This document shows, in pieces, positions 39,505 to 57,368 of a DNA stretch of 64,000 nt. The translations under genes and the position numbers were made by a program. Source of the DNA: Candidatus Yonathbacteria bacterium RIFCSPLOWO2_01_FULL_43_27 (GTDB taxonomy: Bacteria; Patescibacteriota; Minisyncoccia; Phycocordibacterales; UBA1550); the NCBI GenBank assembly GCA_001823545.1, contig MHUV01000005.1, forward strand, positions 15,910 through 79,909, given 5' to 3'. Position 1 is the first letter of the stretch. Every line of letters begins with the position of its first letter. The notes beneath the pieces are model-generated. The model searched no databases, had not been told where the DNA came from, and saw only the letters and a list, made by a program, of their open reading frames with translations.

Positions 39505-39531
39505 GATGTTTTTTGATATAGCGTAGACAAC

Positions 39532-39570
39532 AAAAAGACCGACCTTTTCAGAAAAGGTCGGTCTTTTTGT
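39532..39570. terminator. Bidirectional rho-independent terminator
   Basis: AGACCGACCTTTT-cag-AAAAGGTCGGTCT plus TTTTT. Confidence 0.75.
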
Positions 39571-39587
39571 TGTCTGAATATCAGAAA

Positions 39588-52826: not shown

Positions 52827-52902
52827 TGGAGCCACCTCCCAGATTCGAACTGGGGACCTTTGCTTTACAAAAGCATTGCTCTACCAACTGAGCTAAGGTG
52901 GC
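52827..52902 (-). tRNA. trnT: tRNA-Thr (anticodon UGU), CCA encoded
   Basis: Acceptor GCCACCT/AGGTGGC, D-arm GCTC-AGTTGGTA-GAGC, anticodon loop TTTGTAA, T-arm CCCCAGTTCGAATCTGGG, and 3' TCCA. Confidence 0.8.
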
Positions 52903-52990
52903 ATATGAACCTACAACCAACTACTTACAACAAACAATTTATAACATCCTCGCAATACTTTTGTAAAGCATTGGCTATTTGTCTTTCTTG

Positions 52991-55600: not shown

Positions 55601-55912
55601 CTATATCGCTAAATCGTCGATTGCCTCATCAACAGTCTTTACTGCACTTGAGCGCTTACCACCCTCGGGTTCATTAATCTTCAAATTCACGCGTGCGTTA
55701 TTCTTCATACCTACCGTACGAAGGAGTGTACGGATTGCCTTCGCGGTATTGCCGTCACGACCAATGATTTTACCCATATCACTTGGATTTACCTCAAGCG
55801 TAATAAGGACGCCCATTTCATCGACAATGCGATCTACGTGCACATCACTTGGATTATCTACGAGAGCTTTTACTACATATTCTAAAAATACTACATCTGG
55901 TTCTTGTGTCAT
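55601..55912 (-). CDS. KH-domain RNA-binding protein (YlqC/UPF0109 family)
   Basis: KH motif IIGRDGNTAKAIR. Confidence 0.75.
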   Translation of the reverse strand: MTQEPDVVFLEYVVKALVDNPSDVHVDRIVDEMGVLITLEVNPSDMGKIIGRDGNTAKAIRTLLRTVGMKNNARVNLKINEPEGGKRSSAVKTVDEAIDDLAI

Positions 55913-55957
55913 GGTTTTACAATCTTTAACTGGTAATGTATTTTCAATACGATTGCT

Positions 55958-56146
55958 TAGAGCTTGTTTAGAATCTAATGGCTGACCAAAATAACAAAAT
56001 TTCGAGCGAAAAACGAACTGGAGCTCAAGCCGTATCGAGATACGGTTTGAGCGAAGTGAAGTTTTGCAGCCGAGATTTTGTTGTTTTGGTAGCCAAGTAT
56101 GGTTTCCAAGGTTTATTTCACGATTAGATTCTAAACAGGCTCTTAC
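55958..56146. ncRNA. Candidate structured RNA: ~190-nt long imperfect hairpin with central bubble and terminal stem-loop (6S-RNA-like), or a MITE-like inverted repeat
   Basis: Outer 21-bp inverted repeats AGAGCTTGTTTAGAATCTAAT / ATTAGATTCTAAACAGGCTCT. An inner imperfect stem pairs GGCTGACCAAAATAACAAAAT with ATTTTGTTGTTTTGGTAGCC. Two ~22-nt unpaired arms enclose a terminal hairpin GCTCAAGCCGTATC-GAG-ATACGGTTTGAGC. Confidence 0.35.
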
Positions 56147-56215
56147 ATATTATACTACATATCGCCCCAGAAAACGCAACATATGATTAATCTTACGAGG
56201 TAGTATTCTTCTAAT

Positions 56216-56267
56216 TTCTAGTATCGACGTATAATATACTATAGTATATTATACGTCGATACTAGAA
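56216..56267. repeat. Perfect 52-bp palindrome (26 + 26) with imperfect extension to about 56199..56282
   Basis: TTCTAGTATCGACGTATAATATACTA | TAGTATATTATACGTCGATACTAGAA; the flanks GTAGTATTCTTC / GAAGAAAAAATACTAC extend the symmetry. Confidence 0.9.
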
Positions 56268-56375
56268 GAAAAAATACTACATGAGCTAGTTAAATGTTTA
56301 AATTGATCTGCTCTCTCAGTATGATATACAGATATTCCACAAGGTGGGAATCTGGTTCGCAAAAGTTTTCTTGTG

Positions 56376-57368
56376 CTAGTGTGTCGATGCAGAGGCGATA
56401 CACGCATTGAACGCCTGCACCTCGGCGTTATATTGCGCGATTAAAATTCTCGTTGCCTCGACGAGCGCATTATATATTGGCACGAGCGCATTATACTCCC
56501 CCACAACCACATTATATGAAGGGTTGTAGGGTGGTGTTGATTCAAGGAGTGCCTTCTTTATATCAAGTTCGTTCTTCAAAAAAGCTATTTGACTATTATT
56601 GTTATCAATAGTGGTTTTTGTTGCAGTATTAATTGTCGGGCACGATGATAAAGGTTTACCAAAACTCTGCACGGCGAGCCACGTCTCTCGCCCTTCATAC
56701 ATCCCCTTCCCAACGGCGATACCGATTTCTTGATATTGCGCATTGAGGATATTTGCACGATGTCCAGGACTTGCCATCCACGCATCCACCAACTTAGCGT
56801 TATTTTCAAAATTACCCAGTGCAAGATTTTCACCCACTACTACATACGCATACCCTACCGTTTTAGCAAGATCTGAAGGGCCAACTCCTATCGGCGAAAC
56901 ATGCTCGAAGTATTGTCTGGCAAACATATCTGCAAGTTTCAACTGTGCGCTATGTTCCAATGTCGTATTATAGAGAAGTGCGGGGAGAGCACCATTCTGC
57001 GCGCGCGCACTATTTGTATAAGAAAAAACGCCCTCTTTCGTAAGTGTTTGAGGTGAAGCAACCACACTACCTTCCTGAGTAATACGAAGTGGCCCTGGCG
57101 CCACCACTATTGTTTCTGTTTTTGCAGTAGTAACAGCAAGTGCGCCATTCGTTTTTGTGGGAGTATTAATTTTTGTAACGACCGGCGTTGTCTGTGTAGA
57201 TTTTGCTGATACGCTTTTCTGAGCAACGATAGGTGCCGACGTCGTCGCTGTTTTTTGTACAATACCAGGGGTAGTACTACGAGAATTCTCAAAGTAAGAG
57301 TACGACAAAAAACCTATAGCTAAAAATATTACAATCGATAAAAATGTTTTTATGAAATTAGCAAACAT
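56376..57368 (-). CDS. CAP/SCP/PR-1-like domain protein (YkwD family), membrane-anchored
   Basis: An N-terminal TM helix, a Thr-rich linker, and a C-terminal CAP domain (MASPGHRANILNAQYQEIGIAVG). Confidence 0.65.
   Translation of the reverse strand: MFANFIKTFLSIVIFLAIGFLSYSYFENSRSTTPGIVQKTATTSAPIVAQKSVSAKSTQTTPVVTKINTPTKTNGALAVTTAKTETIVVAPGPLRITQEGSVVASPQTLTKEGVFSYTNSARAQNGALPALLYNTTLEHSAQLKLADMFARQYFEHVSPIGVGPSDLAKTVGYAYVVVGENLALGNFENNAKLVDAWMASPGHRANILNAQYQEIGIAVGKGMYEGRETWLAVQSFGKPLSSCPTINTATKTTIDNNNSQIAFLKNELDIKKALLESTPPYNPSYNVVVGEYNALVPIYNALVEATRILIAQYNAEVQAFNACIASASTH

What the first reader, a model, noticed from the sequence alone, without database searches (positions are those of the whole stretch)
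55958..56146. 6S-RNA-like ~190-nt irregular hairpin (or MITE)
Outer 21-bp stems (AGAGCTTGTTTAGAATCTAAT / ATTAGATTCTAAACAGGCTCT) enclose a second imperfect ~20-bp stem. Two ~22-nt unpaired strands then flank a 14-bp terminal hairpin (GCTCAAGCCGTATC-GAG-ATACGGTTTGAGC). A closing stem, central bubble and terminal stem within 180-200 nt is the architecture of 6S RNA (SsrS), which is often unannotated in divergent lineages. It could alternatively be a miniature inverted-repeat element.
Basis: partly seen in the sequence, partly recalled or inferred. Interest (0 to 1): 0.55.

Follow-up and report, generated by a model that had tools for sequence, protein, structure and literature searches.

The report
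Small hairpin transposon, not 6S RNA
The 190-base hairpin is real, but it is a small non-coding mobile DNA element (MITE-like) that landed at the start of a conserved operon in an uncultured groundwater bacterium; it is not a 6S RNA gene.

Summary
The hairpin is confirmed: RNA fold -92.7 kcal/mol on the + strand (z = -14) and -70.4 on the - strand. The 6S RNA reading is not supported. No Rfam family matches, even at E<=10, in the window or in the homologues.

Close relatives have the same gene order (CAP-domain gene, khpA-like KH gene, trmD, rpsB, tsf). Several of them carry an empty site, TATAAT-N3-TAA-GCAATCG. The window has TAA-[183 bp]-TAA at exactly that point.

The insert (55960-56142) has 20-bp terminal inverted repeats starting GAG. 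It is flanked by a 3-bp target duplication (TTA on the + strand). Homologues sit in two other places in other Parcubacteria, flanked by TTA or TAA. One is in the opposite orientation about 50 bp away at the same promoter. The other is directly in front of a DUF2914 gene.

In this strain the element lies between the -10 box and the conserved leader. It is therefore probably transcribed as a 5' hairpin of the operon mRNA.

Open points:
- Only one copy per genome was seen.
- No cognate transposase was found.
- Shared copies are far less diverged than synonymous sites.

Overall it is an ordinary kind of object: a new MITE family in a candidate-phyla-radiation lineage.

The parts
55960..56142 (.). 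The 183-bp non-coding mobile element (MITE-like), an almost full-length imperfect palindrome
   Evidence: Its boundaries are defined by the filled-versus-empty comparison with L101-L106. Filled relatives are L107-L110.
55957..55959 (.). Left copy of the 3-bp target-site duplication (TTA on +, TAA on the KH-sense strand)
   Evidence: Empty sites carry a single TAA or a near variant (TAAGCAATCG). The window has TAA on both sides of the insert. L007 has TTA on both sides.
55960..55979 (.). Left terminal inverted repeat, GAGCTTGTTTAGAATCTAAT
   Evidence: (I4). It differs from the right repeat at one position (T.G).
55985..56014 (.). 5' arm of the inner stem. It ends in the block GCGAAAA, which is conserved in L007.
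   Evidence: (I2) and the alignment.
56023..56052 (.). Apical hairpin: 13-14 bp with loop CGAG. TATCGAGATA is conserved in L007. In L108-L110 a 25-nt insertion splits it.
   Evidence: (I5).
56061..56090 (.). 3' arm of the inner stem. It holds the 24-nt block GCAGCCGAGATTTTGTTGTTTTGG, whose 21 specified positions are identical in window, L007 and L100.
56095..56122 (.). One-sided unpaired T-rich segment. It gives the element a polarity, and the same side is unpaired in L007 and L100.
56123..56142 (.). Right terminal inverted repeat, ATTAGATTCTAAACAGGCTC
56143..56145 (.). Right copy of the 3-bp target-site duplication (TTA)
56149..56179 (-). Conserved promoter-like box of the KH operon: TTGCGT (56179..56174), 19 nt, TATAAT (56154..56149). 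The element starts 6 nt downstream of the -10 hexamer.
   Evidence: The box is nearly invariant in all relatives with or without the element. L007 has the homologous TTGCAC-18-TACAAT. Promoter function is inferred, not shown, and the scan did not list it because of the 19-nt spacer.
55913..55956 (-). Conserved 44-nt leader between the insertion point and the KH start codon
   Evidence: It is identical or nearly so in all strains compared. It folds separately from the hairpin, and the start region stays open.
55601..55912 (-). The KH-domain (KhpA-type) gene, first gene of the KH-trmD-rpsB-tsf cluster downstream of the insertion
   Evidence: ORF list and Pfam labels PF13083, PF01746, PF00318 and PF00889.

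Best explanation
Window 55960-56142 is a 183-bp non-autonomous DNA transposon of the MITE type. It has 20-bp terminal inverted repeats beginning GAG and no conserved reading frame, and it is almost entirely self-complementary.

Shown: it inserted into a TAA (TTA on the + strand), and that triplet was duplicated. Inferred: the insertion was made by a transposase supplied in trans that makes a 3-bp staggered cut. The target size, the T-W-A target and the GAG ends point to an IS5 / PIF-Harbinger-like DDE enzyme. That assignment rests on my memory of the ISfinder family table.

In this Candidatus Yonathbacteria strain the element sits 6 nt downstream of the -10 box of the KH-trmD-rpsB-tsf cluster, at about the transcription start. 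Inferred: the operon mRNA begins with the element as a large 5' stem-loop (about -70 kcal/mol in that sense). The conserved leader and the start region are left unpaired.

Whether the hairpin now changes mRNA stability or processing is not known. Such effects are documented for Correia and ERIC elements.
For: 1. Filled versus empty sites. L101-L103, L104 and L105/L106 have the same CAP-KH-trmD-rpsB order. They read ...GTAGTATAAT-N3-TAAGCAATCG... (CAAG in L104). The window reads ...GTAGTATAATATG-TAA-[GAGCC...183 bp...AAGCTC]-TAA-GCAATCG.... L107 and L108-L110 are filled at the same triplet.
2. The terminal inverted repeats differ by 1 mismatch in 20.
3. There are independent insertions elsewhere. 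In L007 (Parcubacteria GW2011_GWA1_47_8) a 74%-identical copy lies between rpsP and KH. It is flanked by TTA on both sides, sits about 5 nt upstream of the -35, and is in the opposite orientation relative to KH. In L100/L113 the right repeat is followed by TAA-TG, the start of a DUF2914 gene, and the 83%-identical relative L112 has no element there.
4. It is not coding. The 49-aa ORF stops early in L007 and is frame-shifted by the 25-nt insertion in L108-L110. Among 1.84 billion representative proteins the only real hit is the ORF itself.
5. No RNA family matches.
6. Substitutions among copies at the shared site hit paired and unpaired columns equally (13/142 versus 4/47), and none is compensated. 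This is what a passenger sequence would show.
7. A published review states that MITEs can be present at 1 to 22 copies per genome, so low copy number does not exclude the class (PMC10969869, read).
Against: Only one copy per genome was seen. There is no second copy in the 64-kb window or in 579 kb of held sequence. The one metagenome scan, with a 21-specified-base block, returned three contigs from two organisms. No transposase gene or longer element with matching ends was found, so mobilisation in trans is inferred.

Copies shared at the same site are much less diverged than third codon positions of the adjacent genes: 1.8% versus 13%, and 4-6% versus 39-40% (Fisher p from 1.5e-3 to 3e-22). 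A decaying passenger would not be expected to show this.

Pairing along the whole rod, not only in the terminal repeats, is kept between distant lineages. Fourteen pairs changed on both sides, and 0 of 500 shuffles reached that number. This suggests that the hairpin itself matters.
Confidence: 0.8

Rival explanations
1. The element is an exapted MITE. It arrived by transposition, but it is now a selected cis-acting RNA structure at the 5' end of the KH-trmD-rpsB-tsf mRNA. It could be an RNase III processing site or a 5' stabiliser. On this view it has been kept by purifying selection since before the strains diverged and was lost precisely a few times.
For: It is 3-10 times less diverged than third codon positions in every pair that shares it. 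It lies inside an otherwise ultra-conserved promoter-leader region. The rod shape is kept with double-sided changes between lineages. It folds as an independent 5' domain. Correia elements are cleaved by RNase III, and ERIC elements alter mRNA decay (PMC10969869; PMC2649163, listed).
Against: Substitutions among the copies at the shared site are not depleted in paired columns, and none is compensated. L108 carries three uncompensated changes in the apical stem. L108-L110 carry a 25-nt insertion at the apex. The element is absent from L105/L106, which are nested next to window and L107 by third-position distance. In L007 it lies upstream of the promoter in the other orientation, so it cannot serve as the same leader there.
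Confidence: 0.25
2. It is a 6S RNA (SsrS) or another housekeeping small RNA gene, transcribed from the + strand.
For: The length is about 185 nt and the shape is rod-like. In the window copy all five wobble pairs are G-U on the + strand. A weak promoter-like site, TTTACA-17-TATTTT, lies at 55916-55944 on the + strand just upstream.
Against: No 6S or other Rfam hit at E<=10 on the region, or at E<=1 on three homologues. There is no conserved two-sided central bubble. The strand asymmetry is not shared by L108-L110 or L007, which fold about equally well on both strands. The locus is missing from close relatives, with a target-site duplication at the junction. Orientation and position differ between genomes.
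Confidence: 0.03
3. It is a hairpin-dependent single-strand-DNA transposon remnant (IS200/IS605-type palindrome-associated element) or a REP/BIME-like repeat moved by a tyrosine HUH enzyme.
For: It has very strong hairpin potential as single-stranded DNA. Pairing is conserved along the whole length.
Against: By my recollection of established knowledge, those elements have no terminal inverted repeats and make no target duplication. They insert next to a fixed 4-5-nt sequence. Here both ends are inverted repeats, and a 3-bp duplication is present at two full copies. REP units are 20-40 bp (abstract of PMC3733652, listed).
Confidence: 0.04
4. It is not mobile. On this view it is a locally generated palindrome, from replication slippage or inverted duplication, that was later deleted in some strains.
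For: Only one copy per genome was observed.
Against: Homologous copies (74% identity, nhmmer E = 1.7e-6 for the single query and 9.5e-47 for the profile) occur at different sites, in different orientations and in different gene contexts in other genomes. Each ends at T-W-A.
Confidence: 0.02

Closest known systems
Bacterial MITEs in general (for example MITEAba12, BrickBuilt, Nezha)
   Same: It is short and non-coding. It has terminal inverted repeats, a short target-site duplication and filled/empty polymorphism between strains. It is intergenic and sits next to promoters. The definitions were read in PMC4596501 and PMC10969869.
   Different: Only one copy per genome was seen. No parent insertion sequence was identified. 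Almost the whole element, not only the ends, is self-complementary.
ERIC (enterobacterial repetitive intergenic consensus) and Correia (CREE/NEMIS) elements
   Same: Both are 100-190-bp imperfect palindromes that are co-transcribed with neighbouring genes and fold into long RNA hairpins. Correia hairpins are cut by RNase III, and ERIC insertions change mRNA decay (PMC10969869). The window copy sits in a 5' untranslated position of an operon.
   Different: There is no sequence similarity. The host phylum is different (Parcubacteria / candidate phyla radiation). The duplication here is 3 bp (T-W-A), whereas from memory those families duplicate TA. No effect on expression has been shown here.
IS5 family (IS1031-type group) and eukaryotic PIF/Harbinger 'Tourist' MITEs
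   Same: They share a 3-bp T-N-A / T-W-A target duplication and ends beginning GAG. This is from my memory of the ISfinder table. As partial support, IS5-family ends such as GAGACCTTTGCAAAA are quoted in PMC4596501.
   Different: No transposase was found, so the assignment is only a lead. The L007 ends begin GAA.
6S RNA (Rfam RF00013 and related models)
   Same: The overall length and the rod-like fold are similar.
   Different: There is no covariance-model match and no conserved two-sided bubble. It is not conserved among close relatives. It is bounded by inverted repeats and a target duplication.

Membership tests
[quoted passage not shown] | Short (50-1000 bp) with no transposase or conserved ORF | tested here: met
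   The element is 183 bp. The 49-aa ORF is not conserved: it stops early in L007 and is frame-shifted in L108-L110. It has no real protein relatives.
[quoted passage not shown] | Terminal inverted repeats | tested here: met
   The repeats are 20 bp with 1 mismatch in the window and 20 bp with 1 mismatch in L007.
[quoted passage not shown] | Target-site duplication, present once at empty sites | tested here: met
   The pattern is TAA/[element]/TAA against a single TAA in L101-L103 and L105/L106. L007 has TTA on both sides. L100 has TAA at its only available end.
[quoted passage not shown] | Insertion polymorphism, with copies at non-orthologous sites | tested here: met
   Three different sites were found in three lineages, in two orientations relative to KH.
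[quoted passage not shown] | Several copies within one genome | tested here: inconclusive
   There is one copy in the 64-kb window and none elsewhere in 579 kb held. Published MITEs range down to 1 copy per genome (PMC10969869).
[quoted passage not shown] | A cognate autonomous insertion sequence with matching ends | not testable with these tools
   No further match to the repeats was found in held sequence or viral contigs. No further scan of genome or metagenome collections was available.
IS5-family-derived (IS1031-type) element | 3-bp T-N-A duplication and GAG ends (criteria recalled from memory of ISfinder) | tested here: met
   The duplications are TTA/TAA. The ends are GAGC in window and L100 and GAAC in L007. 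The criteria themselves were not verified in a paper here.
IS5-family-derived (IS1031-type) element | Mobilised by an IS5-type DDE transposase | not tested
   No transposase was identified.
6S RNA | Match to the 6S covariance models | tested here: not met
   No 6S hit at E<=10 on 55850-56400, at the gathering threshold on the window, or at E<=1 on L007, L109 and L100.
6S RNA | Large two-sided central bubble between the closing stem and the terminal stem, conserved among homologues | tested here: not met
   The region is partly paired in the window. In L007 it carries an extra 57-nt hairpin. The largest unpaired stretch is one-sided and lies near the end.
6S RNA | Housekeeping gene kept in close relatives | tested here: not met
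   It is absent at this locus from L101-L106. Presence elsewhere in those genomes could not be checked.
6S RNA | Binds the sigma-70 holoenzyme and templates product RNA | not testable with these tools
   This needs an experiment.
IS200/IS605-type palindrome-associated element | No terminal inverted repeats, no target duplication, insertion 3' of a fixed tetra- or pentanucleotide (from memory) | tested here: not met
   Inverted repeats and a 3-bp duplication are present.

The most novel reading that the evidence does not exclude
The element is more than a passenger. It could be a mobile hairpin module whose rod shape and internal 24-nt block are kept by selection across distant Parcubacteria. 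In the Yonathbacteria clade it would then have been domesticated as the 5' stem-loop of the khpA-trmD-rpsB-tsf mRNA. That would explain why copies at the shared site are 3-10 times less diverged than synonymous positions, and why two independent insertions flank the same promoter.
Probability: 0.25. Interest if true: 0.5.

Novelty: new member of a known kind. Interest (0 to 1): 0.25.

Why it matters
Mobile elements are thought to be scarce in the very small genomes of candidate-phyla-radiation bacteria. I found no description of MITEs in this group: a large 2024 MITE survey does not mention Patescibacteria, and one full-text search returned nothing relevant. A clean filled/empty example shows that transposition is active or was recently active there. 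It also gives a natural comparison: the same conserved operon promoter with and without a 183-nt 5' hairpin. For the genome scan the practical point is that long, nearly perfect hairpins of this size should first be tested as mobile elements before being called small RNA genes.

Tried and rejected
- **Rfam.** I ran the gathering threshold on the whole window, E<=10 on the region and E<=1 on three homologues. The only hits were microRNA-like noise on the neighbouring perfect palindrome.
- **Homologues near KH genes.** I searched 80 species-representative genomes; only L007 had the element. The TATCGAGATA hit in L038 lies in a coding region and is chance.
- **Metagenome scan.** A conserved 24-nt block returned only L098 and L099 (both identical to L007) and L100.
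- **Other collections.** Two viral-contig scans, plasmid blastn and phage blastn found nothing.
- **The internal 49-aa ORF as a handle for other copies.** The representative search found only the ORF itself plus a spurious repeat protein, and the exact-protein look-up returned the same locus only.
- **Strand preference from G-U pairs.** It holds in the window copy only, not in the other variants, so I dropped it as evidence for a + strand RNA.
- **Confirming the IS1031-group features in the paper library.** The relevant reviews are not held, so that assignment stays a recollection.
- **A first attempt to fold all upstream regions** timed out.
- **A covariance model.** I considered building one and did not. 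The profile search had already covered all held sequence, and a long-hairpin model would mostly pick up unrelated palindromes.

Full report
**1. The observation**

The sequence at 55958-56146 is a nested set of inverted repeats, as described.
- Outer arms: 55959-55979 / 56123-56143, 21 nt, 95% complementary.
- Inner arms: 55985-56014 / 56061-56090, 30 nt, 80%.
- Apical arms: 56023-56036 / 56039-56052, 14 nt, 93%.

| Fold | Energy (kcal/mol) | z against shuffles |
|---|---|---|
| + strand RNA | -92.7 | -14.1 |
| - strand RNA | -70.4 | -10.5 |
| single-stranded DNA | -50.4 | -11 |

The outer arm occurs only in these two places in the window. No comparable nested structure exists elsewhere in the 64 kb.

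The region called a central bubble is partly paired. The only long unpaired stretch is one-sided: 56095-56122, next to the right outer arm.

**2. Context**

The window comes from a Candidatus Yonathbacteria genome (Parcubacteria, candidate phyla radiation) known from aquifer metagenomes.

On the minus strand the order is:
- a CAP-domain gene (57368..56376);
- a 463-nt spacer;
- a KH-domain KhpA-type gene (55912..55601);
- trmD, rpsB and tsf.

The spacer holds a 78-bp palindrome (56203-56280), a promoter-like box, the hairpin and a 44-nt leader. Five contigs from other samples are 100% identical across the spacer.

**3. It matches no known RNA family**

Rfam gave only two tRNAs in the window at the gathering threshold. 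On 55850-56400 at E<=10 there was no 6S hit. The only hits were microRNA-like, on the neighbouring perfect palindrome, plus very weak ones on the hairpin. Three homologous loci gave nothing at E<=1.

**4. The decisive comparison**

I collected KH homologues and fetched the contigs that encode them.

Six contigs have the same CAP-KH-trmD-rpsB order: L101-L103, L104 and L105/L106. In the KH-sense orientation they read ...TTGCGTTTTC...ATATGTAGTATAAT-N3-TAAGCAATCGTATTG... (CAAG in L104).

The window reads ...ATATGTAGTATAATATG-TAA-[GAGCCTGTTTAG ... CTAAACAAGCTC]-TAA-GCAATCGTATTG....

The hairpin is therefore a discrete insertion of 186 bp: a 183-bp element (55960-56142) plus one extra copy of the triplet TAA (TTA on the + strand, at 55957-55959 and 56143-56145). 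Its ends are 20-bp inverted repeats that begin GAG.

L107 and L108-L110 carry the element at the same triplet. L108-L110 have an additional 25-nt insertion at the apex.

L104 has the neighbouring palindrome but not the hairpin. L107-L110 have the hairpin but not the palindrome. The two are separate events.

**5. Copies elsewhere**

Among 80 loci around KH genes of species-representative genomes, only L007 has a homologue. L007 is Parcubacteria GW2011_GWA1_47_8, with KH 75% identical.
- The copy is 74% identical and has a 57-nt extra side hairpin.
- It is flanked by TTA on both sides and lies between rpsP and KH.
- It sits about 5 nt upstream of the homologous promoter box (TTGCAC-18-TACAAT).
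- Judged by the apical loop CGAG and the one-sided unpaired segment, it is in the opposite orientation relative to KH.

The single metagenome scan, with the most conserved internal block, found three contigs. L098 and L099 are identical to L007. L100 is new. L100 begins inside the element, and its right repeat is followed by TAA-TG, the start of a DUF2914 membrane-protein gene. An 83%-identical relative of that gene, L112, has no element in front of it.

The result is three insertion sites, two orientations and three T-W-A flanks.

**6. Not coding**

The 49-aa ORF inside the element stops at codon 27 in L007. In L108-L110 it is frame-shifted by the 25-nt insertion. In 1.84 billion representative proteins it has no real relative apart from itself.

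**7. Most likely mechanism**

These features define a non-autonomous terminal-inverted-repeat transposon of the MITE type. It would be mobilised in trans by a DDE transposase that makes a 3-bp staggered cut at T-W-A.

From memory of the ISfinder table, a 3-bp T-N-A duplication with GAG ends fits the IS1031-type group of the IS5 family, which is related to PIF/Harbinger. I could not verify this in the held papers. PMC4596501 does quote IS5-family ends of the type GAGACC....

The transposase itself was not found, so this step is inferred.

**8. Consequence for the host locus**

The element starts 6 nt after the conserved TATAAT (56154..56149, minus strand), at about the expected transcription start.

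The operon mRNA in this strain is therefore expected to begin with the element in the weaker sense (about -70 kcal/mol). It would fold as an independent 5' domain and leave the conserved leader and the start region open.

Promoter function and transcription are inferred from conservation of the box in all relatives. They are not shown.

The closest functional analogues are the Correia and ERIC elements. Their co-transcribed hairpins are cut by RNase III or alter mRNA decay (PMC10969869; PMC2649163).

**9. What does not fit a simple passenger**

Third codon positions of KH plus trmD were compared with the element.

| Pair | Third positions | Element |
|---|---|---|
| window vs L107 | 13% | 3 of 168 (1.8%) |
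| window vs L108-L110 | 39-40% | 8-11 of 189 (4-6%) |

Fisher p values range from 1.5e-3 to 3e-22.

Presence is also patchy. By third-position distance L105/L106 group with window and L107, but they lack the element. L108-L110 are closer to the empty L101-L103 clade.

Against selection on structure, variable columns among the copies at the shared site are equally frequent in paired positions (13/142) and unpaired positions (4/47). None is compensated.

Between distant lineages, however, pairing is kept along the whole rod. In total 92.7% of cells are paired, and 14 pairs changed on both sides, 8 of them outside the terminal repeats. None of 500 shuffles reached that number.

Possible explanations are an old insertion under constraint with precise losses, repeated insertion at a hot spot, or short-tract recombination. 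I cannot decide among them with the data available.

The apparent + strand preference (five G-U pairs) is peculiar to the window copy. The other variants fold equally well on both strands.

**10. Copy number**

No second copy was found in the window, in 579 kb of held sequence, in viral contigs, in plasmids or in phages. Whole genomes could not be scanned. Published MITEs range down to one copy per genome (PMC10969869). This criterion remains open rather than failed.

**11. Verdict**

It is a new family of a known kind of element, in a lineage where such elements are little documented. Interest is modest. The one point worth following is the unusually low divergence of the copies that sit at the start of a conserved operon.

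Noticed in passing
window 56203-56280: This is a 78-bp palindrome whose inner 26+26 bp are perfect with no spacer (TTCTAGTATCGACGTATAATATACTA|TAGTATATTATACGTCGATACTAGAA). It carries promoter-like hexamers on both strands. It is present in the window and L104 but absent from L107-L110, L101-L103 and L105/L106. L006 and L086 have a different perfect palindrome with the same centre (GTACTATAGTAC) at the equivalent place upstream of the KH promoter.
   Followed up: partly
window 55913-55956 and 56149-56179 (minus strand): The promoter-like box and the 44-nt leader of the KH operon are almost invariant among strains whose third codon positions differ by up to 40%. This suggests a strongly constrained regulatory leader.
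   Followed up: partly
window 55601-57368; L006, L007, L086, L090: In most relatives rpsP (ribosomal protein S16) lies directly upstream of the KH gene. In the window clade a CAP-domain gene is there instead, so the usual rpsP-KH linkage was broken at this spacer.
   Followed up: no
L108 1080-1293, L109 295-508, L110 157-370: The copies of the element in this clade carry a 25-nt insertion exactly at the apical loop. L108 also has three uncompensated changes in the apical stem.
   Followed up: partly
L086 2930-3447: A BrnT-toxin / CopG-antitoxin-like gene pair is inserted between KH and trmD in this relative.
   Followed up: no
L090 about 2290-2370: Two direct copies of a 37-nt G+C-rich unit (CTGCGGAATCGTGTCGCGCAAGTCCGTTGGGCGCGAC) lie between rpsP and KH.
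   Followed up: no
window 52861-52879 and 52952-52970: A 19-nt stretch inside tRNA-Thr (52827-52902) is repeated in inverted orientation 72 nt away, 95% complementary.
   Followed up: no
L100 98-122 and L112 440-490: In L100 the element's right end abuts the ATG of a DUF2914 gene. The original upstream region is therefore displaced, and the only purine-rich stretch before the start codon (AGG) lies inside the terminal repeat.
   Followed up: partly
window 39525-39575: This is a perfect 25-bp hairpin with a 1-nt loop (AGACAACAAAAAGACCGACCTTTTC / GAAAAGGTCGGTCTTTTTGTTGTCT). It may be a bidirectional terminator.
   Followed up: no
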